Shown piece by piece: positions 7,303 through 28,881 of a stretch of DNA of 64,000 bases. This DNA is from Pseudomonadota bacterium. GTDB lineage: Bacteria > Pseudomonadota > Gammaproteobacteria > QQUJ01. Below the pieces are notes generated by a model. It was not told the origin of the DNA. It did not search any database and worked only from the letters and a program-made list of their open reading frames with translations. Location: positions 3,085 through 67,084 of the forward strand of contig QQUJ01000004.1 in the NCBI GenBank assembly GCA_008501635.1, written 5' to 3'. The translations under genes were made by a program, and so were the position numbers. Every line of letters starts with the position of its first letter. The stretch's first letter is position 1.

Positions 7303-7401
7303 AGAAGTCTCCTTAAATTCTCGGTATTGGAAAAGGGCCGGAAAAGGCGGAAAAGGGGACGCCCATTAGCCGACTCCGGTCAAGCGGCACGAATGCTGTT
7401 C

Positions 7402-8442
7402 TTACAGGCAAATGTACTGAATACCACTAGCATCCGGTGAGGCACTTTGGTTCTCGATGTATTGCTCGTTAGTCCCATCCTGCTCAATCACAACGACGCC
7501 GGTTTCGCGCACCACCGGGCCCGGATCACCAACGTAACGGTGAAATAAAAGCTTCTCATCCTCGTCGTACCAAACCGGCGTACGATCCAGATGTAGACCA
7601 ACGCCGGGAGCACAGGAGACGCACAGGGCAGCGAAAGGCGCTGTAGTAGCCACCCGATAAATTTTTCCGCCCCCGCCCTCATAAGCCAGATATCGATTGT
7701 CTTTAGACCATGCGATTCGATTGGGCTTGGCTGTTAACGTCAATGGAGTGCTTCCTGCGAACACCGTGCTGGTCGCCTGGAGGCTACCGTCCGCTTGCCG
7801 AATGACGACGTCACGACCGCGCACAAAAGCGACCCGACCATCCGAAGCCCAGGAAGGCAAAATGTCGTTCACGCCAATCGTTCGAACCAGCAACGTGCGG
7901 TTGCTGCCGTCCAGGTTGCTGGTATACAGGTCGTAGTCGTTCGGATCAGCAGGGCCGGTGCTGGCGAAAACTATCAGCCGATTGTCGGTGGAGATGCTTG
8001 GGTGACGACTGTTTAGCGACAAGGGCGACAATGGAACAGGTACGCTTCCCGGCGTTCGTGTATCGACGCGATACAAAGACAGATTGTCGTTGGTATTTTC
8101 CCAAGTGAAATAGAGCCAACGACCATCGGAACCCCAAGCATAATCAGTGGTCGCACGGCCCGCCAGGCTCCCGGTTAAATTCTTGAATCCACTGCCGTCT
8201 CTCGTTGCGACAAAAATGTCGTTTCTGGCGTGCTGCGCACCAAAATAGGCAAAGCGGTTTTCAGAGGGGGCCCAGATGGGAACTTTGTTGTTACGTGTTG
8301 GCAGAGACACGTTCCTGATTCGCTCACAGATCACCAGCCGGATATTCCCAGTCGTTGGCTGATGGAAAAGGACCGCGGATTGGCAGCCTAAGAGTAAAAA
8401 GGCGATAAATAGTAATGTGCCTGCTTTGAGTGGTTGAACCAT
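7402..8442 (-). CDS. TolB-like beta-propeller lipoprotein
   Basis: Lipobox LLLGC after signal peptide. Repeated WD40-like beta-propeller (TolB-type) segments. RBS GGAGGAG. Confidence 0.5.
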   Translation of the reverse strand: MVQPLKAGTLLFIAFLLLGCQSAVLFHQPTTGNIRLVICERIRNVSLPTRNNKVPIWAPSENRFAYFGAQHARNDIFVATRDGSGFKNLTGSLAGRATTDYAWGSDGRWLYFTWENTNDNLSLYRVDTRTPGSVPVPLSPLSLNSRHPSISTDNRLIVFASTGPADPNDYDLYTSNLDGSNRTLLVRTIGVNDILPSWASDGRVAFVRGRDVVIRQADGSLQATSTVFAGSTPLTLTAKPNRIAWSKDNRYLAYEGGGGKIYRVATTAPFAALCVSCAPGVGLHLDRTPVWYDEDEKLLFHRYVGDPGPVVRETGVVVIEQDGTNEQYIENQSASPDASGIQYICL

Positions 8443-8586
8443 AGCTCTCCTCCTTGAAGCCAGTAGGCGATGAATGCGCGAGTCCGGCGATTCTTCTTAA
8501 AACGTGTTCAGATTAGTATTAAAGGGCTCTGACCCCTTTAAATGCTTTCCCTTCGTCCCCTTTATACTCTTTTTCGCGACGGTCTC

Positions 8587-9030
8587 TCAGGTTTCCTGTT
8601 GAAGCCTTTGTTCAATATCACGCAGTAGCTCAATGGTACTTTCAAGCCGCGCCGGATCGAGACCACGGCTCAGGTCGTTAACCCAGCGTGCCTGAATTTG
8701 GCTGATCTGCTCGTATTTGTGTTTTCCCAGTTCAGTCAGCCGTATCAGTTTTGCGCGGCGGTGAAGGGGGTTGGGCTCGAAGGCGACAATACCCTCCTCT
8801 GCCAGCACATCAACCAACCGTTGGACACTCTGACGTTTGAGCCCCATCTCACGCGCGATCTGCGTCGCGGTGAGTGCGTTCCCATCCAATGTACCCATGA
8901 CCTGCCAGCGTGCGCTGGTTAGTCTCAGTTCGCGGGTCAGGCGGTCACCCGCCGCCAGAAGCAGGCCATTCACCCGAAAGACAGCCAGTATCAGGTTCGT
9001 GGTGATTTCTCCGGATCTCGTACGGTTCAT
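8587..9030 (-). CDS. MarR-family transcriptional regulator
   Basis: Winged-helix MarR core (LTATQIAREMGLKRQSVQRLVDVLAEEGIV...RRAKLIRLTELG). Start at MNRTR (9030) preferred for its AAGGA RBS. Confidence 0.75.
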   Translation of the reverse strand: MNRTRSGEITTNLILAVFRVNGLLLAAGDRLTRELRLTSARWQVMGTLDGNALTATQIAREMGLKRQSVQRLVDVLAEEGIVAFEPNPLHRRAKLIRLTELGKHKYEQISQIQARWVNDLSRGLDPARLESTIELLRDIEQRLQQET

Positions 9031-9048
9031 GTAATCCTTCCACTGCCA

Positions 9049-9104
9049 TTGACAGCATACTGACAAGATGACAGCATACTGACAAACACCATGCGGTTTG
9101 TCAA
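9049..9104. promoter_or_regulatory. Candidate MarR operator: two direct 16-bp repeats plus a TGACAAAC-N7-GTTTGTCA palindrome in the divergent MarR/DUF2269 promoter region
   Basis: gacagcatactgacaa occurs at 9051-9066 and 9070-9085. The palindrome lies at 9080-9103 between the divergently transcribed genes. Confidence 0.35.
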
Positions 9105-9124
9105 TCCATAACAGGAGTAGGGTT

Positions 9125-9628
9125 ATGAATACGTTTCTTAAGGGTTTTCATCTTGTCGCTCTGGCAATTTTCCTGGGAAGTATCCCTGGGCACATTCTAT
9201 TGGGGGCTATGGGAGATCCAGCGCGGGATCTCGAAGGATTTGCGGTGCTGATGCAGGCGAAACAAATGAATGTCCAATGGCTCACCGTTCCAGGTCTCGT
9301 GATCACCCTGCTGTCGGGTCTCACCCTCATGGTGAGGCGAGGAATCAAACCGACCAGGAATCGGTGGTTGGCAGCCAAGCTTGCGTTGGTTGTGCTGGTT
9401 GCTCTGAATGGCGCGCTGATACTGGGTCCCCTTAGTCGTGAAATGGCCACTATGGCCCAACATGCCGTGCAGGCAGGTGCACTGCCAAGTGCCTTTGCGA
9501 CGCTGGAAGGACGGGAGGCGATCTTCGGTGCGGTCAATCTGGCGATGATCCTGACCATTATCGGTCTTGTCGTCGCCAAACCCGCTTTGCGGCGTGCAAA
9601 TGGCCCGTCTGCGGGTATTCCACAATGA
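9125..9628 (+). CDS. DUF2269-like integral membrane protein
   Basis: 4-TM small membrane protein. AGGAG RBS before ATG at 9125. ATGA overlap with a paralogous downstream gene. Confidence 0.5.
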   Translation: MNTFLKGFHLVALAIFLGSIPGHILLGAMGDPARDLEGFAVLMQAKQMNVQWLTVPGLVITLLSGLTLMVRRGIKPTRNRWLAAKLALVVLVALNGALILGPLSREMATMAQHAVQAGALPSAFATLEGREAIFGAVNLAMILTIIGLVVAKPALRRANGPSAGIPQ

Positions 9629-10200
9629 TCTACCCATTGCTCAAGTTTGCCCACATCGTTGGCGTGATGCTTATTGGCGCCGGGCTCATTGGCGTCTGGT
9701 TTGCCGATCTGCGCAGCCGCCAACTGAGGGAGTTGAGCCCTTTTGCGGAGGCGGTACGCAACATTGCGGTTTTTTATGATGGCCTGGTGGTCCCGGGTGC
9801 AATTCTGTTGTTGCTATCGGGCAGTTGGTTGATCGCGGAGTTCTTTGGAGGTTGGCAGTTTCTGAAACAACCTTGGCTTCTCGGAATGGTGGTGCTGTTT
9901 TTGTTCGAGTTCATAGAGGGAAATACTGTAACGCGGCTCTACTTCATGCGGATGCGCCGCCTGACCCGAGAGGCCCTTCGCGAGGGACACTTTACGCCTG
10001 AGCTTGAGGCGGCGCGGGCGGAATCGGTACCCTCCTTCACCCATTTTCTGGATCTGCCGGTGCTATTGGTCATCGTGGCCTTGGGCACGATCAAACCGGA
10101 GACCTGGACGTTGTTTCTGGTGGGCTGTCTCGCGGCCATCCTGGTGGCTGTCGCATTGACGCGATACATACCCAAACTCTATCCGTGGGGTGCGGGGTAG
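9625..10200 (+). CDS. DUF2269-like integral membrane protein (paralog)
   Basis: Same architecture as the preceding gene (MIYPLLKFAHIVGVMLIGAGLIGVWF...), translationally coupled to it. Confidence 0.5.
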   Translation: MIYPLLKFAHIVGVMLIGAGLIGVWFADLRSRQLRELSPFAEAVRNIAVFYDGLVVPGAILLLLSGSWLIAEFFGGWQFLKQPWLLGMVVLFLFEFIEGNTVTRLYFMRMRRLTREALREGHFTPELEAARAESVPSFTHFLDLPVLLVIVALGTIKPETWTLFLVGCLAAILVAVALTRYIPKLYPWGAG

Positions 10201-10336
10201 TCAGGGTGAATTGCTGGCGGTTTCATTCCCCAACCGCAAATACTCGACATCGCAACTCCCTTGCTTTCGTGTTTCGATGGATGTTATCGGCCAATCGGTG
10301 GGCTGGCTAATATTTATTCCCTTCGTCCCCTTTTTC

Positions 10337-10954
10337 CTATTCCTCAAACAACTTTCCTTCAACCACTACAATGGGAAAGACAACAGAACAGATATTCGGA
10401 CTTCGACGAAGCATCCCTATCTCTTTTTTCTCCGCCTCTTTCCTTTCATCAAGCTCGGCTACAGCAGCCAATGCAGCTTTTGAAACAGAAGTAACAGCGG
10501 AATAACATACATCTTTACCTGATGTTAAGGCCTGAGTTACACCATAAGCAGGCCTTTTAGGTATTGAGAATATCGGCAGGCGTTGAATATCAGCGTTTTT
10601 ACATGCTTCGTGAAGAAAGTGCCTTCCTAGACTATTTGCTGCTCGTTGTGCCACGCGAGCTGGATCAGCCAATCGTTTTTTATCAGATGTAAAAAGCAAC
10701 CACGGCTTATCAGTTGAACGCTTACATTCAATAAGAAGAGAAATTCGAAACAATACGTTTTCTACTTTTTTCTGCTTATATGCGACAATATCCAGCTCAC
10801 GCGAATCACCTGTTTCAGGATCTGAATAATACTCCGATTGAACAACGCGAAAACCACTTTGTTGTAAGGTAGACGCTACACGCATTTCCAAGGGGTAACC
10901 TTGCTCATCAAGCCACTTTGCTATCTTTGTTTTTAAGTCGTCTTTTTCGGTCAT
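10337..10954 (-). CDS. Mrr-cat-like PD-(D/E)xK restriction-endonuclease-fold protein
   Basis: 205 aa in a low-GC region. Motif E...D-I-V-A-Y-K ... L-I-E-C-K-R-S matches the D-x(n)-(E/Q)-C-K nuclease core of Mrr-type endonucleases. Last gene of the low-GC cassette. Confidence 0.55.
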   Translation of the reverse strand: MTEKDDLKTKIAKWLDEQGYPLEMRVASTLQQSGFRVVQSEYYSDPETGDSRELDIVAYKQKKVENVLFRISLLIECKRSTDKPWLLFTSDKKRLADPARVAQRAANSLGRHFLHEACKNADIQRLPIFSIPKRPAYGVTQALTSGKDVCYSAVTSVSKAALAAVAELDERKEAEKKEIGMLRRSPNICSVVFPIVVVEGKLFEE

Positions 10955-11019
10955 GCTTATAGGTTTCTAACGTTTATACTCTGCTGAGCTGCCTTTTTGG
11001 TGTCGGCTGGAGTACATCG

Positions 11020-12144
11020 TTATACGTTATTCTCATCATCACTATCGGGCTGCCAAGATAGAGGGAGGACTGATTTTCCTTCCATATCCCGGTATCTAAT
11101 TAGACTTGCTTTTTCTTTTACATCTCTTATTACTTTTGACCTTCTTTCGTATTCGGAATTTGCTTCCCCGTTTTCAGTATCCTTTTCAGGCGGTTCTGCT
11201 ATATTTCCTATGCGCGCAGAAAAATGATATCCAATATCAAGTCTTCCGGCGATTTTTTTAACACTCATACGTACATGGCCTTCAAGCTCATTACCTCTTA
11301 GGTCAGGACGTTTGACGACTTTATACTGCTCGATTAATTCGGATGTTATTTCATTTATTTTTTCAGACATTAAAGACTCAGCCCATTTGTCAATTTCATC
11401 AATTAGTTGTTTTGGTGCATCTTTTTCTTCCAGTTCTGCTTTTTTCTTCCTAATATCAAGAAGCTTCTCATAACCTAGCAGTAATATGGCAATTGTGCCT
11501 ACTATCACTTGTGCTGTTTCAGGTAATACTTCGAGAAAAACTGAAAAATCTGATGAAGAAATTGATCTTACTTTGAACTGTTCGGCTTTTCCTGTAACAA
11601 GCTCATTAAAGTGCATTAACTCTCGATTTAATTTTTGTAGATCTTTTGAAAAGTACTCGAGATCATCAGCATTCTCTCGTCTTGGAATAAGAACCCCTAA
11701 TTCCGCAGTATACCCTTTTAGCTCTTCAGCACTTATACCAAGACGTTCAAATCCTGCGACTAATTGTTCTAGGCCTCCTCTGAAAGATGCAAGCTCAGTA
11801 TGCATTTCTAGAATTTCTTTTTGTACTATGGCTGGCGTTACATCTACTTGAGTAAAACTGGCTTCTATTCTTGACTTAAGTGCGCCACCAAGAATTCCTG
11901 AGCCGCCAATTTCAGTAATTATTTGTTGTTTAGATACAGGCCTTTCATAAGATTCTATTTTTTCTAGAGCACCAATAAGGCTTAATTTATGAGCTGCTAC
12001 TTGCTCTTGAGGTTGCGGCTGGTTGGGTTGATTAATGGTATTTTGTAATGCATCAGCTAATTGATTTAGACCGCTCACAAGACTTGCAGAGTCAATTTCT
12101 TTTATGAGTTCTAAACATATTGAGTGAAGTTGCTCAGCGTTCAA
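11020..12144 (-). CDS. Hypothetical membrane-anchored coiled-coil protein
   Basis: 374 aa, about 40% GC. TTG start with RBS AAGGGAGAAGG. Long predicted coiled-coil N-terminal half, a single central TM helix (FSVFLEVLPETAQVIVGTIAILLLGY) and a charged C-terminal tail. No NTPase motifs. Confidence 0.5.
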   Translation of the reverse strand: MNAEQLHSICLELIKEIDSASLVSGLNQLADALQNTINQPNQPQPQEQVAAHKLSLIGALEKIESYERPVSKQQIITEIGGSGILGGALKSRIEASFTQVDVTPAIVQKEILEMHTELASFRGGLEQLVAGFERLGISAEELKGYTAELGVLIPRRENADDLEYFSKDLQKLNRELMHFNELVTGKAEQFKVRSISSSDFSVFLEVLPETAQVIVGTIAILLLGYEKLLDIRKKKAELEEKDAPKQLIDEIDKWAESLMSEKINEITSELIEQYKVVKRPDLRGNELEGHVRMSVKKIAGRLDIGYHFSARIGNIAEPPEKDTENGEANSEYERRSKVIRDVKEKASLIRYRDMEGKSVLPLSWQPDSDDENNV

Positions 12145-12266
12145 ATTCCTTCTCCCTTGCTATTGTTTATTCGCATAATGTTCACATAAAAGGCCGGAGC
12201 AAGCGAAGCTTGCGTAGGCCCAGCCCGCAGGGCGATTTTTGATGTGCTGGTTAGGCACTCGAACGC

Positions 12267-12731
12267 TCACTTTACGGCCGATACAGCAATAGACAGAAGA
12301 GATTCCGTACCTTGTAGCATGGCATTTTGATTCGGTAGCACTATGCCGTGGAATCCAAGTGGATACCTCAAATGGAATGGCCTGTCGTAAACCTGATGAA
12401 GGTGTACTACCCATTCTGGTTGTGGCGCGGGTAAAGGGTAGCCTCTATTCTTAGATTCCTCCCAGAGAGAGAGAATGTCGTGACCGTAAGGCGCGCGGCT
12501 GAGCGTCTCGACGTTTAAACCAGCCTCTGACAGCATAGCTTTAAGACTCGCTTCGCAGGTATGGCCGCATAGAAGGGTGATGGCAAATGGGGGCTTGGGC
12601 GAAATATCCGCTAAGGGTTTTGCGCCCAAGAACATTCCTTTTGCAGCAGTCAAATAACCCTGAGCTTCCGTAGGTTGGAATGTCCTAATGCCAGTAAGAT
12701 TGACCATAATTGTGCCCAACAGTTTCTTCAA
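12267..12731 (-). CDS. Hypothetical protein (first gene of the low-GC cassette)
   Basis: 154-aa ORF. TATAAT box about 95 bp upstream. No recognisable domain from sequence alone. Confidence 0.3.
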   Translation of the reverse strand: MKKLLGTIMVNLTGIRTFQPTEAQGYLTAAKGMFLGAKPLADISPKPPFAITLLCGHTCEASLKAMLSEAGLNVETLSRAPYGHDILSLWEESKNRGYPLPAPQPEWVVHLHQVYDRPFHLRYPLGFHGIVLPNQNAMLQGTESLLSIAVSAVK

Positions 12732-12992
12732 TCGAACACTTCAGCTATCCCCCGCGCAGTCCATTTCTGACAACGCCAAAAAAATCCGCAAGCATTCAAT
12801 TAAGATGAAACAACAGACAGAGAATTATACGGAACTGTTCCAGCTAACTCCCTGCCGCCTGTTTCTGATCTCCTGAAAACACCCCGCCGCCAACTATTTG
12901 ACAACACCCGCCTTTTCCAACCAAACGAGCTCTCGGTCGCGAAACAGGCGGAACACTTCCGTTGAACTGGGGATCGGCCCCTCCGGCCGACC

Positions 12993-13886
12993 TCAACCGC
13001 TTGCAGCCTCCTTGGCCTCGCTCGCCGCTTTGGCCTTCGCCTTCTTGTCCGGGTCGGGCAACATCCCCGGCAGGTGAATGATGTCGGTGGGGCAGACCTC
13101 GACGCAGATCTCTTTGCACTCCGGCCCGTAGTGACGGCAGGTGAAGTGATTGACGTCGATGGCGCCGTCGCGGTAGTCGATGGCCTTGGCGGGGCAGGCC
13201 TTGATGCAGAGCTGGCACTGGATGCAACCGACCATGCAACTGTCCTTGACCGCCTTGCCGCGCTCCTGGGTGAGGCAGGAGAGGATCACGCGATGCTCGC
13301 GCGGATACATGGTGAGCACGTCTTTGGGGCAGGCGGCGATGCAGAGGGTGCAGCCGGTGCACTTTTTCACATTGATCTCGACGATGCCGAGATCACTGAT
13401 GTGCATGGCGTCGAACTGGCAGACGCGCACGCAATCACCCAGCCCCAGACAACCGAACTTGCAGCTCTTGGGACCGCCGAATGAGAGCATCGCCGCCACG
13501 CAGGTGTTGATGCCGTCGTACTCGGCCTGCTGTTTCGCCCAGTTGTTGCTGCCGTAACAGCGCAGCCGTGCCACCTCGTCGCGCATCTCGCCGACCGCCT
13601 TGCCGGTGAGCTGCCCGATTTCGACCGCGACATCGGCGCCGCCCGGCGCGCACAGGATCGGCGAGACGTCGGGATTTTCCACCACCTCCTCGGCGTAGGC
13701 GTGACAGCCCGCGAATCCGCAGGCGCCGCAATTGGCGGCGGGCAGATTCTCATTGACCTCTTCGACCACCGGATTGGATGGCACATGAAAGCGGCGCGCC
13801 GCGGCTGCGAGGGCGATGCCAAAGAACAGCCCCATGGTGGTAAAGACCAGCACACCCCACAGCGCGATGGAAAGCAGATTCTCCAT
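12993..13886 (-). CDS. rnfB: Rnf complex subunit B (polyferredoxin)
   Basis: N-terminal TM helix, CGACGFAGC cluster, multiple CxxCxxCxxxCP ferredoxin motifs. Last gene of the operon. Confidence 0.85.
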   Translation of the reverse strand: MENLLSIALWGVLVFTTMGLFFGIALAAAARRFHVPSNPVVEEVNENLPAANCGACGFAGCHAYAEEVVENPDVSPILCAPGGADVAVEIGQLTGKAVGEMRDEVARLRCYGSNNWAKQQAEYDGINTCVAAMLSFGGPKSCKFGCLGLGDCVRVCQFDAMHISDLGIVEINVKKCTGCTLCIAACPKDVLTMYPREHRVILSCLTQERGKAVKDSCMVGCIQCQLCIKACPAKAIDYRDGAIDVNHFTCRHYGPECKEICVEVCPTDIIHLPGMLPDPDKKAKAKAASEAKEAASG

Positions 13887-13889
13887 GCG

Positions 13890-14753
13890 TCACATCACCT
13901 TGAGACCGGAAAAGCCAAGGAAACTCAGCGCGAACAGCCCGGCGATAATGAAAGCGATCGGCAGGCCGCGAAACAGGCGCGGCACCGGCGCCATGTCGAC
14001 CTTCTCGCGCGCGCAGCTCATGAGGAACAGCGCCAGGGCAAACCCCAGACAGGCGCCGAGCGACAAGCTCACCGCCTCGACGAACGAAGCGCCCGCCGTG
14101 GCGTTGAGCAGCGGGATGGCGAGGATGACGCAGTTGGTGGTGATCAGCATCAGATAGATACCGAATTTTTTGTGCAGCGCCGGCGCGATTTTTTTCAGCA
14201 CCAGATCCGTGCCCTGCACCAGACAGGCGACGATGCCGATGAAGGCGATGATCTGCAGAAAATCGAGCTTCAGCGGCTCCAGCGCGGAGTGGTGCAGCAG
14301 CCACGACAGCGTGCCGCTCAGCACTCCCACGACGCCGAACGTCACCCCCATGCCGATCGCCGTCTCGCGTTTGCGGCTGACGCCGAAGAAGACGCACAGA
14401 CCCAGATACTTGGTGAAGACGAAGTTGCTGATCAGCGCCGCGCCGATCACGCCGGAGACCAGCAGGGCGACCACCGAAGGCTCGATGGACCACAGCCCCT
14501 CGATCCCGGCGATGCTCATCAGATAGTGGCCGCTGCTGCTCAGCGGCTCGGCGGTGGTGACGATGAAGGTACCGGCGTCGGCGCCGGGCAGCAGGCCGGT
14601 CAGCGTGATCGGGATATCGGCATCGTTGGCCTGCACCAGGCGAATGGCATCGACGTCGGCGGGCATGACGCCCTCGACCAGCAGTTTGTAGTCGGATAAC
14701 ACTTTCGCTGTCGCCGCCATATCTCTTCCTCCTTCTACCGGGGCCACCGTCAA
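13890..14753 (-). CDS. rnfA: Rnf complex subunit A with an unusual N-terminal extension of about 80-95 aa
   Basis: The C-terminal 200 aa align with RnfA/NqrE (ISNFVFTKYLGLCVFFGVSRK...). The ORF is open upstream to 14753, only 6 bp after rnfE. A shorter start at M79 (14519) would leave a 240-bp open in-frame gap. Confidence 0.75.
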   Translation of the reverse strand: MTVAPVEGGRDMAATAKVLSDYKLLVEGVMPADVDAIRLVQANDADIPITLTGLLPGADAGTFIVTTAEPLSSSGHYLMSIAGIEGLWSIEPSVVALLVSGVIGAALISNFVFTKYLGLCVFFGVSRKRETAIGMGVTFGVVGVLSGTLSWLLHHSALEPLKLDFLQIIAFIGIVACLVQGTDLVLKKIAPALHKKFGIYLMLITTNCVILAIPLLNATAGASFVEAVSLSLGACLGFALALFLMSCAREKVDMAPVPRLFRGLPIAFIIAGLFALSFLGFSGLKVM

Positions 14754-28805: not shown

Positions 28806-28881
28806 AGCTCCCTTCGTCTAGTGGTCTAGGACGCTGGCCTCTCACGTCGGTAACAGGGGTTCGAGTCCCCTAGGGAGCGCC
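28806..28881 (+). tRNA. tRNA-Glu (anticodon CUC)
   Basis: 76 nt, GCTCCCTTCGTCTAGTGGTCTAGGAC...GGTTCGAGTCCCCTAGGGAGCGCCA. Collinear with E. coli tRNA-Glu. Anticodon loop CCTCTCA. Confidence 0.85.

What the first reader, a model, noticed from the sequence alone, without database searches (positions are those of the whole stretch)
10337..12731. Low-GC three-gene cassette beside rnfB: small protein, membrane-anchored coiled-coil protein and Mrr-like PD-(D/E)xK nuclease - candidate uncharacterised defence module
GC drops to about 40-45% for about 2.5 kb in a roughly 62-65% background. Three co-directional genes sit here. The first is a 154-aa protein with no recognisable domain. The second is a 374-aa protein that is half coiled-coil, with one central TM helix and no NTPase motifs. 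The third is a 205-aa protein with a D-IVAYK...IECKRS restriction-endonuclease core. A membrane sensor or scaffold plus a nuclease effector is a recurring logic of anti-phage and abortive-infection systems. However, this pairing does not match named systems I can recognise: no SMC/ATPase as in Lamassu, no DUF4263 as in Shedu, no RT, and no cyclase. The cassette is wedged between the 3' end of the rnf operon and a MarR/DUF2269 unit. An identical 17-bp motif (TTCCCTTCGTCCCCTTT) sits just 3' of the nuclease gene (10317-10333) and again at 8547-8563.
Basis: partly seen in the sequence, partly recalled or inferred. Interest (0 to 1): 0.75.

Follow-up and report, generated by a model that had tools for sequence, protein, structure and literature searches.

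The report
Leftover integron gene cassettes beside rnfB
The low-GC stretch is not a three-gene defence machine but a short, integrase-less string of independently mobile integron-type gene cassettes, one of them a broken nuclease gene; this is a known kind of genetic flotsam, though the cargo families are uncharacterised.

Summary
The GC drop, the three co-directional ORFs, the D...ExK motif and the 17-bp repeat are all real. The three genes are not a module. Profile HMMs found no co-occurrence in 80 gene-2 loci, 64 gene-3 loci or 8 close-relative contexts; the trio occurs only in this organism (MAG PRO23, marine anammox reactor).

GC3 differs between the genes (0.48, 0.24, 0.31; host 0.84-0.88). 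Gene 3 is a remnant: relatives are about 286 aa, and the window copy stops at residue 205. Its homology breaks at 10342, which abuts a 25-nt direct repeat.

Nucleotide homology shows gene 2 and gene 3 are separate single-gene units bounded by G|TTRRRY-type junctions. Gene 2 is followed by an attC-like site (10962-11028). A covariance model built from such sites finds arrays of 8-9 co-oriented sites in related loci. These include independent arrays around distant gene-2 relatives, with strong covariation.

Best reading: an integrase-less remnant of an integron-type cassette array inserted downstream of the rnf operon. It carries a divergent HEPN-like gene, a member of a large unannotated ~375-aa helical family (2,430 clusters) and a truncated PD-(D/E)xK nuclease gene. 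Any defence role for individual cassettes is plausible but untested.

The parts
12267..12707 (-). Gene 1: a 146-aa protein (the mechanical ORF starts at TTG 12731, giving 154 aa). It is a divergent HEPN-like protein with GC3 0.48.
   Evidence: 49 homologues, mostly 146 aa. Invariant blocks are LLCGH.CE..LK and LRYPLGF(H/N). 11 of 23 family members give sub-threshold Pfam HEPN hits (best E 0.002) covering residues 47-117 against profile positions 31-91 of 117. One relative is named HEPN by UniRef. The window copy itself has no Pfam hit.
12173..12256 (-). Spacer after gene 1: a degenerate attC-like sequence. R''-like GCCTAAC lies at 12256-12250, the apex is GCAAGCTTCGCTTGC, and the R'-like site ATTATGC lies at 12179-12173. 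The 5' boundary of the gene 2 cassette is at about 12178.
   Evidence: Manual reading only. Not detected by covariance model R1 even with filters off. Gene 2 homology with L151 and L181 begins at 12178-12182, where those loci read G|TTATAC.
11020..12144 (-). Gene 2: a 374-aa helix-rich protein of a large unannotated family, with a TTG start conserved in relatives. GC3 0.24.
10962..11028 (-). attC-type recombination site of the gene 2 cassette: GTATAAC at 11025-11019, then an inner stem, then CGTTAGAA with G at 10971. The cassette junction G|TT falls at 10971|10970.
   Evidence: CM R1 gives 51.9 bits, E about 1e-10; this site was in the training set. It is homologous to the sites after gene 2 in L151 and L181 and after gene 3 in L159. 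The inner stem is weaker than in relatives (DNA fold -6.3 kcal/mol, z -1.7).
10337..10954 (-). Gene 3 remnant: 205 aa, the N-terminal 72% of a roughly 286-aa PD-(D/E)xK nuclease-fold family. D55, E76 and K78 are retained. The last 81 codons and its own attC are lost. The cassette remnant spans 10342-10970.
10317..10341 (+). Direct repeat copy B (TTCCCTTCGTCCCCTTTTTCCTATT). It abuts the gene 3 truncation breakpoint (10341|10342) and contains the premature stop codon.
8547..8571 (+). Direct repeat copy A (TTCCCTTCGTCCCCTTTATACTCTT), 16 nt beyond the MarR stop codon. Copies A and B bracket the MarR-DUF2269-DUF2269 unit.
12842..12967 (-). Possible rnfB-side boundary of the islet: a GC-rich palindromic stretch GTTCAAC...GTTAGCT downstream of the rnfB stop (12993). 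The GC content changes here.
   Evidence: Pattern and fold scan only, composition, terminator-like hairpin at 12906-12885. Weak: not supported by the CM.
12993..13886 (-). rnfB, the last gene of the host rnf operon. It is co-directional with the cassettes and lies immediately upstream of them.

Best explanation
The 2.4-kb low-GC stretch is a short remnant of an integron-type gene-cassette array with no integrase nearby. It lies immediately downstream of the host rnf operon and points the same way. The genes are independent cargo, not parts of one system.

Shown:
- Gene 2 and gene 3 are discrete single-gene units found separately in other cassette arrays.
- The gene 2 unit runs from a TTATGC junction (about 12178) to the G of CGTTAG (10971) and carries an attC-type imperfect palindrome (10962-11028).
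- The gene 3 unit begins at the next base (TTAGAAACC...). It encodes a PD-(D/E)xK nuclease-fold protein but is cut off after codon 205 at a rearrangement breakpoint that abuts a 25-nt direct repeat. It has lost four strands, two helices and its own attC.

Inferred:
- Gene 1, a divergent HEPN-like protein, is a third and older cassette whose attC has decayed.
- The array arrived either by integrase-mediated insertion outside an att site or as a fragment of a larger array.
- The promoter-less cassettes are transcribed, if at all, by read-through from the rnf operon.
- The gene 3 remnant is non-functional.
- Gene 1 (HEPN RNase-type toxin or defence protein) and gene 2 (unknown helical protein that often neighbours defence cassettes) may each act alone, as is typical of integron cargo.
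For: No synteny. HMMs of the three families found 0/80 gene-2 loci and 0/64 gene-3 loci with either other family within 6 kb. There is no conserved neighbour by sequence or by Pfam domain. Eight close-relative contexts all differ.

Different GC3 per gene.

Separate homology blocks. Gene 2 spans 10967-12182 and gene 3 spans 10342-10975/11004. Junctions fall at G|TTAGAAAC and G|TTATAC.

attC-type sites. Ten sites share invariant TAAC...GTTA ends, and 8 of 9 inner pairs show compensatory changes. CM R1 finds 26 sites in about 1.1 Mb searched, all on the coding strand. Sixteen of them were not used in training. L181 has 9 sites following its ORFs. L064 has 8 sites and L067 has 3, in both cases bracketing distant (32% identity) gene-2 relatives. 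L082 has one. On all 25 distinct sites, 94% of cells pair against 72% in shuffles (0/500), there are 67 double-change cells against 20.6, and the covariation score is 0.50 against at most 0.105 for slid controls.

Truncation.

Fixed in the population: 23 contigs and a complete genome share the same layout at 99.9-100% identity, including Illumina-only assemblies.

Literature. CALIN and SALIN elements are common. IntI can insert cassettes outside att sites, where they are expressed if near host promoters, and aberrant excision alters chromosomes (PMC4889954; 10.1101/2022.09.11.507474). Integron cassettes carry defence genes (10.1101/2024.07.02.601719; PMC12614218).
Against: - The window has only one confident attC-type site, and that site was in the model's training set. 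Its inner stem is weak (-6.3 kcal/mol, z -1.7).
- The spacer after gene 1 is not detected by the model even with filters off, so gene 1's cassette status rests on manual reading.
- Gene 1 relatives examined (L167-170, pPA35) are not in arrays recognised by the model.
- No integron integrase was seen in the window or on any of the related contigs, although only crude tests were run.
- The published IntegronFinder attC model could not be run, and my model is narrow (10 related sites). The alignment used for covariation was fitted to the model.
- Most gene-2 and gene-3 family loci show no such sites, so the families are not exclusively cassette-borne.
- The role of the 25-nt repeat in the truncation is unexplained.
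- Three of four close gene-2 relatives have a HEPN-superfamily gene upstream, which could instead mean a functional pair.
Confidence: 0.68

Rival explanations
1. Gene 1 and gene 2 form a two-gene module: a HEPN RNase toxin or effector plus a partner from the gene-2 family acting as sensor, regulator or antitoxin, with the HEPN slot swappable. Gene 3 is unrelated debris.
For: Among close gene-2 relatives (65% identity or more), 3 of 4 known contexts have a HEPN-superfamily gene immediately upstream on the same strand, from three different HEPN families: the window's gene 1, HEPN_AbiV in L181 and ZnF-DUF4145 in L152. DUF4145 is a HEPN-superfamily domain according to PMC3710099.
Against: In the wider family, only 2 of 48 upstream ORFs carry a HEPN-type domain, and those two are the cases already counted. 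L151 has no upstream ORF. In L181 an attC-type site separates the AbiV gene from gene 2, so they are separate cassettes. ZnF-DUF4145 is the architecture of RAZR, a self-sufficient single-protein defence system (PMC13017515). Gene 1 and gene 2 differ strongly in GC3 (0.48 against 0.24). Gene 2 homology stops about 35 nt upstream of its start. The sample is only 4 contexts.
Confidence: 0.14
2. One reading: one three-gene anti-phage module with a small protein, a membrane-anchored coiled-coil sensor or scaffold, and an Mrr-like nuclease effector.
For: The genes are co-directional with short spacers (122 and 65 bp). The gene 3 family has a nuclease fold. Gene-2 relatives sometimes precede effector-type genes such as SIR2, TIR, NDT-like, HNH and NucS.
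Against: The trio is never syntenic outside this organism. The nuclease is truncated by 81 residues, including near-invariant positions. The TM helix is not conserved. Composition and homology blocks differ per gene. An attC-type site separates gene 2 from gene 3. Downstream partners of gene-2 relatives are heterogeneous and include housekeeping genes.
Confidence: 0.04
3. A generic horizontally acquired islet unrelated to integrons. The palindromes are ordinary intrinsic terminators or REP-like elements that travel with their genes, and the genes arrived by illegitimate recombination.
For: No integrase was found. The window has only one clear site, with a weak stem. attC sites can act as weak terminators (PMC9892861). 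The gene 3 end was clearly produced by some non-cassette rearrangement next to a 25-nt repeat.
Against: Terminators do not carry invariant TAAC...GTTA outer arms separated from a covarying inner stem by 5-6 unpaired bases, and they do not have variable 58-138-nt middles. They also do not occur once after nearly every ORF in co-oriented arrays of unrelated genes, or define homology boundaries at G|TTRRRY.
Confidence: 0.12

Closest known systems
Integron gene cassettes in integrase-less clusters (CALIN) or as isolated cassettes (SALIN); Cury et al. 2016 (PMC4889954), Loot et al. preprint (10.1101/2022.09.11.507474)
   Same: Single, co-oriented, apparently promoter-less ORFs of unrelated function with composition foreign to the host. 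Each is followed by an imperfect palindrome with RYYYAAC-like and GTTRRRY-like ends, a covarying inner stem and a variable middle. Unit boundaries fall at G|TT. The same units appear in other arrays with other neighbours. No integrase is nearby. The element sits next to a host operon that could drive expression.
   Different: Only one confident site lies in the window, against a CALIN definition of two or more. The site after gene 1 is degenerate and the last cassette is truncated. The sites were recognised with a home-made model, not IntegronFinder. No IntI was found anywhere in the data held. R' is GTTAGAA or GTTATAG, so the last position departs from the RRRY consensus.
HEPN-superfamily toxins and defence RNases (classical HEPN PF05168, HEPN/MNT toxin-antitoxin pairs, AbiV, RAZR; PMC3710099, PMC13017515)
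   Same: Gene 1 is a small helical protein whose family gives recurrent weak PF05168 matches. It carries an invariant Arg in an R-x5-H-like block (LRYPLGFH). Relatives sit on mobile DNA next to IS91 and IS110 elements, beside an integrase plus MmeI, and on a mobilizable plasmid.
   Different: All Pfam scores are below the gathering cut-off, and the window copy has no hit. The His is Asn in 3 of 23 members. There is no MNT partner. Some relatives occur as tandem HEPN-like pairs, but the window copy is alone. RNase activity is untested.
Restriction-endonuclease-like PD-(D/E)xK nucleases of the Mrr / AF1548 / Hjc type
   Different: No member reaches any Pfam nuclease model, and Mrr_cat was not hit at all. 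The family has its own extra C-terminal beta-sheet and helical region (residues about 187-280) with a conserved W-R motif. It has no DNA-binding, ATPase or sensor domain and no fixed partner. The window copy lacks the last 81 residues.
   Same: Only the general idea of a nuclease-fold protein in a variable island.
   Different: No PADLOC model matches any of the three proteins or recurs among 45 and 24 family members. No SMC or ATPase, DUF4263, reverse transcriptase or cyclase is present.

Membership tests
Integron attC site / gene cassette | Inverse-core and core sites (R'' RYYYAAC, R' GTTRRRY) at the two ends, mutually complementary | tested here: met
   The window site reads GTATAAC...GTTAGAA. 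TAAC and GTTA are invariant in 24 of 24 scored sites. The last R' position departs from Y in several sites.
Integron attC site / gene cassette | Inner imperfect inverted repeat (L''/L') conserved in structure but not in sequence, set off from the R boxes by unpaired spacers, with a middle of variable length | tested here: met
   8 of 9 inner pairs show compensatory changes. 94% of cells pair against 72% in shuffles (0/500). Covariation score is 0.50 against at most 0.105 in slid controls. Site lengths are 43-138 nt. Caveat: the alignment was fitted to the model. Extra-helical bases were not assessed.
Integron attC site / gene cassette | One site after each ORF in arrays of co-oriented, unrelated ORFs | tested here: met
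   Met in related loci: L181 has 9 sites following its ORFs, L064 has 8, L067 has 3, L159 has 3, and all are on the coding strand. In the window itself only gene 2 has a detected site.
Integron attC site / gene cassette | Cassette boundaries at G|TT, so the same cassette has different upstream sequence in different arrays | tested here: met
   Gene 3 homology starts at TTAGAAACC in the window, L159 and L156. Gene 2 homology starts at TTATAC/TTATGC in L151, L181 and the window. Flanks beyond these points are unrelated.
Integron attC site / gene cassette | Recognition by the curated IntegronFinder attC covariance model, and recombination by an integron integrase | not testable with these tools
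   No IntegronFinder model is available here. Rfam at gathering thresholds returned only a tRNA.
Complete integron | intI (with attI and Pc) adjacent to the cassettes | tested here: not met
   No H-x-x-R-H tyrosine-recombinase motif in any ORF of 150 aa or more, and no tblastn match to a tyrosine integrase in the 64-kb window. These are crude tests, and the rest of the 2.9-Mb genome was not examined.
[quoted passage not shown] | At least two attC sites without a nearby intI (PMC4889954) | tested here: inconclusive
   One confident site (10962-11028) plus one degenerate, manually read site (12173-12256) that the model does not detect. By strict count the element is SALIN-like (10.1101/2022.09.11.507474).
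HEPN domain (gene 1) | Match to a HEPN profile above its curated threshold | tested here: not met
   The window copy has no hit. 11 of 23 relatives hit PF05168 only below the 22-bit cut-off (best 18.6 bits, E 0.002). No PDB sequence match.
HEPN domain (gene 1) | Conserved R-x4-6-H catalytic motif | tested here: inconclusive
   R114 is invariant within LRYPLGF(H/N). The His six residues later is Asn in 3 of 23 members.
PD-(D/E)xK restriction-endonuclease-like fold / Mrr-like (gene 3) | D...(D/E)xK catalytic residues on the core sheet, and the alpha-beta-beta-beta-alpha-beta fold | tested here: met
PD-(D/E)xK restriction-endonuclease-like fold / Mrr-like (gene 3) | Membership of Pfam Mrr_cat or another named nuclease family | tested here: not met
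   Only sub-threshold UPF0102, NERD, Hjc and RE_XamI hits. Mrr_cat was not hit for any of 12 members at E up to 1.
PD-(D/E)xK restriction-endonuclease-like fold / Mrr-like (gene 3) | Complete protein in this window | tested here: not met
   Truncated after residue 205 of about 286. The missing part is absent from the window.
Conserved multi-gene defence system | Component genes co-occur across unrelated genomes | tested here: not met
   0/80, 0/64 and 0/8 contexts. The trio is present only in near-identical contigs of one organism.
Known or candidate defence systems (PADLOC-DB v2.0) | Match to any system protein model | tested here: not met
   No hits at E up to 1 for the window proteins. No recurrent hits among family members.

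The most novel reading that the evidence does not exclude
The gene-2 family is a new, self-contained anti-phage or abortive-infection gene that circulates on integron cassettes. The family has about 375-aa helical proteins, 2,430 clusters at 50% identity, no Pfam model and no structural relative. In its close subclade it might work together with a swappable upstream HEPN RNase. The conserved beta-hairpin plus hydrophobic helix (residues about 190-230) would then be a candidate membrane-inserting or oligomerisation element.
Probability: 0.2. Interest if true: 0.6.

Novelty: new member of a known kind. Interest (0 to 1): 0.33.

Why it matters
As a locus it is ordinary. Integrase-less cassette remnants are common in bacterial genomes, and this one includes a dead gene. 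It matters in three modest ways.

1. It is a cautionary example. Co-directional, tightly spaced, low-GC genes that look like a sensor-plus-nuclease operon can be unrelated cassettes. Synteny and homology-boundary checks settle the question quickly.

2. It flags a large, completely unannotated protein family (gene 2) that recurs in cassette arrays beside recognised defence genes. Recent work shows integron cassettes to be a rich source of single-gene defence systems, so this is the kind of candidate worth screening.

3. It gives a concrete example of cassettes lodged behind a core energy-metabolism operon (rnf), where read-through could express them. This is consistent with the proposed route of integrase-mediated insertion outside att sites.

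Tried and rejected
- **Three-gene synteny.** HMM scan of all ORFs in 144 related loci plus 8 close-relative contexts found none.
- **Conserved neighbour of gene 2 or gene 3.** BLAST clustering found none: the largest clusters span 4 near-identical contigs. phmmer with observed partners found only NDT-like genes, in 3 loci.
- **'HEPN + gene 2' as a general rule.** Rejected for the family. Pfam on 48 upstream ORFs gave only the two cases already known. Kept as a minor rival for the close subclade.
- **'Gene 2 + variable nuclease or NADase effector'.** Pfam on 35 downstream ORFs gave a heterogeneous set with no fixed slot, including housekeeping genes.
- **Phage origin.** No relatives in IMG/VR for any of the three families and no PHROG hits.
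- **Plasmid origin.** Gene 2 has no hits, gene 3 only partial N-terminal matches, and gene 1 one distant hit.
- **Gene 2 as a membrane protein.** The hydrophobic stretch is short and not conserved.
- **Natural short isoforms of gene 3.** The short database entries are frameshifted or N-terminally cut copies, not clean variants.
- **Sequencing artefact as the cause of the truncation.** Rejected, because Illumina-based contigs from several samples are 100% identical across the junction.
- **Simple insertion of the MarR-DUF2269 unit into gene 3.** Rejected, because the missing gene 3 end is not beyond the other repeat copy.
- **Strain variants lacking the islet.** None among 17 contigs with identical RnfB or 23 with identical DUF2269b.
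- **tRNA-linked island.** The only tRNA is at 28807.
Full report
**1. What is in the sequence**

GC falls to 0.355-0.45 over about 10200-12400, in a window averaging 0.604. Three minus-strand ORFs lie downstream of rnfB (12993-13886) and co-directional with it:
- gene 1: 12731/12707..12267
- gene 2: 12144..11020
- gene 3: 10954..10337

They are followed by two convergent DUF2269 genes and a MarR gene. The exact 17-mer occurs only at 8547 and 10317. No Pfam, NCBIfam or PADLOC model is matched, apart from a sub-threshold UPF0102 hit on gene 3. So the raw observation stands.

**2. Source organism**

The window is 99.97-100% identical to CP053451.1 and to many Logan and JGI contigs. CP053451 is MAG PRO23, a 2.91-Mb proteobacterium from a marine anammox reactor (PMC7358590). 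All 17 contigs with the identical RnfB and all 23 with the identical DUF2269b have the same layout. The arrangement is therefore fixed in this population and is not an assembly artefact.

**3. Gene 3 is a remnant**

- Its 72 homologues are typically 260-297 aa, and the window ORF stops at residue 205.
- Nucleotide homology to four relatives (74-92% identity) ends at 10342-10356.
- At the junction the window reads ...GTTGTTTGAGG|AATAGGAAAAAGGGGACGAAGGGAA. Here the reverse complement of the repeat replaces ...GAGG|TTTTCTTGGATGAT....
- The repeat extends to 25 nt (22/25 identical). Its other copy lies just beyond the MarR stop codon, so the two copies bracket the MarR-DUF2269 unit.
- The missing 81 codons are nowhere in the window.
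- A full-length relative models with pLDDT 92.6 and pTM 0.90 as one compact unit. The window stop falls inside a hairpin and removes four strands, two helices and the near-invariant residues L207, G221, W225 and R226.
- Other short database entries of this family are frameshifted or cut copies, so decay is common in this family.

**4. Gene 1**

- The family consensus is 146 aa.
- 11 of 23 members give weak PF05168 (HEPN) matches over residues 47-117. These end at an invariant LRYPLGF(H/N) block.
- Relatives lie next to IS91 and IS110 elements, in one case preceded by another weak-HEPN gene. Others sit directly after a tyrosine integrase beside an MmeI-type gene, and as two adjacent paralogues on a mobilizable Pandoraea plasmid.
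- I call it HEPN-like, not proven HEPN.

**5. Gene 2**

- The family is large: 2,430 clusters at 50% identity, 1,115 of them at E ≤ 1e-30. Nearly all members are 360-390 aa and single-domain. No source annotates them.
- The AF2 model is confident (pLDDT 82) and has eleven helices and a four-stranded sheet.
- The supposed TM helix is about 15 residues long. In distant members it is broken by a conserved Glu-Arg pair.

**6. The module test**

- HMMs of the three families were scanned over all ORFs of 80 gene-2 loci and 64 gene-3 loci. No locus contained a second family.
- No neighbour recurs by sequence.
- Close relatives keep different company:

| Relative (identity to the window protein) | Context |
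|---|---|
| Gene 2, 83% | Membrane protein plus NDT-like gene downstream |
| Gene 2, 82% | After a HEPN_AbiV gene |
| Gene 2, 65% | After a ZnF-DUF4145 gene |
| Gene 3, 92% | After an unknown 254-aa gene |
| Gene 3, 83% | After a TIR gene, with Fic, IS110 and Dam nearby |
| Gene 3, 79% and 77% | Among housekeeping genes |

- GC3 differs between the genes: 0.48, 0.24 and 0.31, against 0.84-0.88 for rnf.

**7. A lead followed and limited**

Three of four close gene-2 contexts have an upstream HEPN-superfamily gene. DUF4145 is HEPN-related (PMC3710099), and ZnF-DUF4145 is the architecture of the single-protein system RAZR (PMC13017515).

Pfam scans of 48 upstream and 35 downstream same-strand neighbours across the family show no fixed partner. 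Housekeeping genes are mixed with single instances of defence-type domains:
- Upstream: a reverse transcriptase, AIPR, HD-CE, YLATT, AAA_15 and AbiV.
- Downstream: SIR2_2, ThsB-type TIR, Nuc_deoxyrib_tr (twice), HNH, NucS_C, OLD-like TOPRIM/AAA and nSTAND1.

The family often sits among defence genes, but without an obligate partner.

**8. What the units are**

- Homology blocks show that gene 2 (10967-12182) and gene 3 (10342-10975/11004) are separate units. Each ends 20-50 nt outside its ORF.
- The 65-bp spacer between gene 2 and gene 3 is shared with the 3' flanks of gene 2 in L151 and L181, and with the 5' flank of gene 3 in L153, where a TIR gene precedes it.
- All gene-3 relatives are preceded by (G)TTAGAAACC. 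All close gene-2 relatives are preceded by (G)TTATAC, which reads ATTATGC in the window.
- The spacers are imperfect palindromes of the form YTAAC, about 5 nt, inner stem, variable loop, inner stem, about 6 nt, GTTA(G/T).
- RNAalifold on ten sites gives an invariant outer stem, and 8 of 9 inner pairs show compensatory changes.
- A covariance model (R1) finds 26 sites in about 1.1 Mb, all on the coding strand. Sixteen were not used for training:
  - two to three more in L181, giving 9 sites in 6 kb, each following an ORF;
  - eight in L064 and three in L067, bracketing 32%-identical gene-2 relatives;
  - one in L082.
- Across 25 distinct sites, 94% of cells pair against 72% in shuffles. There are 67 double-change cells against 20.6, and the covariation score is 0.50 against at most 0.105 for slid controls. 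The alignment is model-fitted, so these values lean towards the structure.
- These are the defining features of integron attC sites and cassette arrays (PMC4889954; PMC9892861).

**9. The window's own status**

- Only one site is detected in the window: 10962-11028, 51.9 bits. It was in the training set, and its inner stem is weakened.
- The spacer after gene 1 has an R''-like GCCTAAC, the GCTTCGC apex seen in several sites, and an R'-like ATTATGC. The model does not score it.
- No tyrosine recombinase is detectable in the 64 kb by crude tests.
- The locus is therefore an integrase-less remnant. By strict count it is SALIN-like, and it is CALIN-like if the decayed site is counted (PMC4889954; 10.1101/2022.09.11.507474).
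- That preprint also shows that integrases insert cassettes outside att sites, that such cassettes are expressed when near host promoters, and that aberrant excision alters chromosomes. This offers plausible but unproven routes for both the location behind rnfB and the truncation.

**10. Verdict**

The stretch is not a three-gene defence system. It is a degraded string of independent integron-type cassettes: an HEPN-like gene, an intact member of a large unknown family, and a broken nuclease gene.

- Shown: the absence of synteny, the separate homology units, the attC-type element and its arrays elsewhere, and the truncation.
- Inferred: gene 1's cassette status, the mode of arrival, expression by read-through, and any function.

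A defence role for gene 1 or gene 2 individually is plausible, given that integron cassettes are known to carry defence genes (10.1101/2024.07.02.601719; PMC12614218). It remains untested.

Noticed in passing
window 9050-9085: Two perfect tandem copies of TGACAGCATACTGACAA (9050-9066 and 9069-9085) lie in the divergent MarR / DUF2269 intergenic region and overlap the longest possible MarR start. This is probably the MarR operator.
   Followed up: no
window 7400-10200: The PD40-repeat lipoprotein, MarR and both DUF2269 genes have GC3 0.56-0.69 against 0.84-0.88 for the rnf genes. The compositionally foreign region is therefore about 5.5 kb and has at least three compositional layers. The MarR-DUF2269 unit is bracketed by the 25-nt direct repeats (8547-8571 and 10317-10341), whose origin is unexplained.
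   Followed up: partly
L181 1-6084 (Logan ERR14940463): A textbook cassette array: nine attC-type sites and nine co-oriented ORFs, including HEPN_AbiV, a gene-2 relative, four small unknown genes and a Fic/Fic_N protein.
   Followed up: partly
L064 1-7415 and L067 (microbial-mat metagenomes): An independent, GC-rich (0.55-0.66) cassette array with eight attC-type sites of the same architecture. It carries a 32%-identical gene-2 relative, so the family is cassette-borne in distant lineages.
   Followed up: partly
L152 6286-6951: A 221-aa protein with N-terminal CxxC...CxxC motifs plus DUF4145, which is the domain architecture of the RAZR abortive-infection RNase. It lies 50 bp upstream of a gene-2 relative, in an island that also has ParB_N, CsrA and SRAP genes.
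   Followed up: partly
L153-L155 (three contigs): A full-length gene-3 relative (83% identity) follows a 283-aa TIR-domain gene by 76 bp, with Fic, an IS110 transposase and a Dam methylase nearby. The spacer before gene 3 keeps only the 3' half of an attC-like site (CGAAAGAAACC instead of CGTTAGAAACC).
   Followed up: partly
L011/L012 7169-8317: A 382-aa SIR2_2-domain gene starts 23 bp after a gene-2 relative (33% identity) in two MAG contigs. This is the tightest gene 2 plus effector-like pairing seen.
   Followed up: no
L167-L169 and Pandoraea apista plasmid pPA35 (L182 3931-5046): Gene-1 relatives occur as tandem pairs with a second HEPN-like gene: a 206-aa protein with a weak PF05168 hit and an 18-bp gap in L167-L169, and two adjacent paralogues on the plasmid. 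The window copy is solitary.
   Followed up: partly
window 12267-12731 and the equivalent positions in L001-L004, L160-L162: Automatic gene calls are inconsistent here. Most assemblies omit gene 1 and instead call a 62-aa antisense ORF, and gene 2 is called as either 352 or 374 aa. The TTG start and the strong GGGAG Shine-Dalgarno sequence are conserved in L151 and L181, which supports 374 aa.
   Followed up: partly
L171 (CP053451.1) 10266-10895 against window 13890-14720: The Nanopore-based genome record has one indel relative to the window, and its rnfA-like gene is called at 209 aa instead of 276 aa. The paper reports only 70.7% completeness for this single-contig MAG. Residual indel errors probably break genes in that record.
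   Followed up: no
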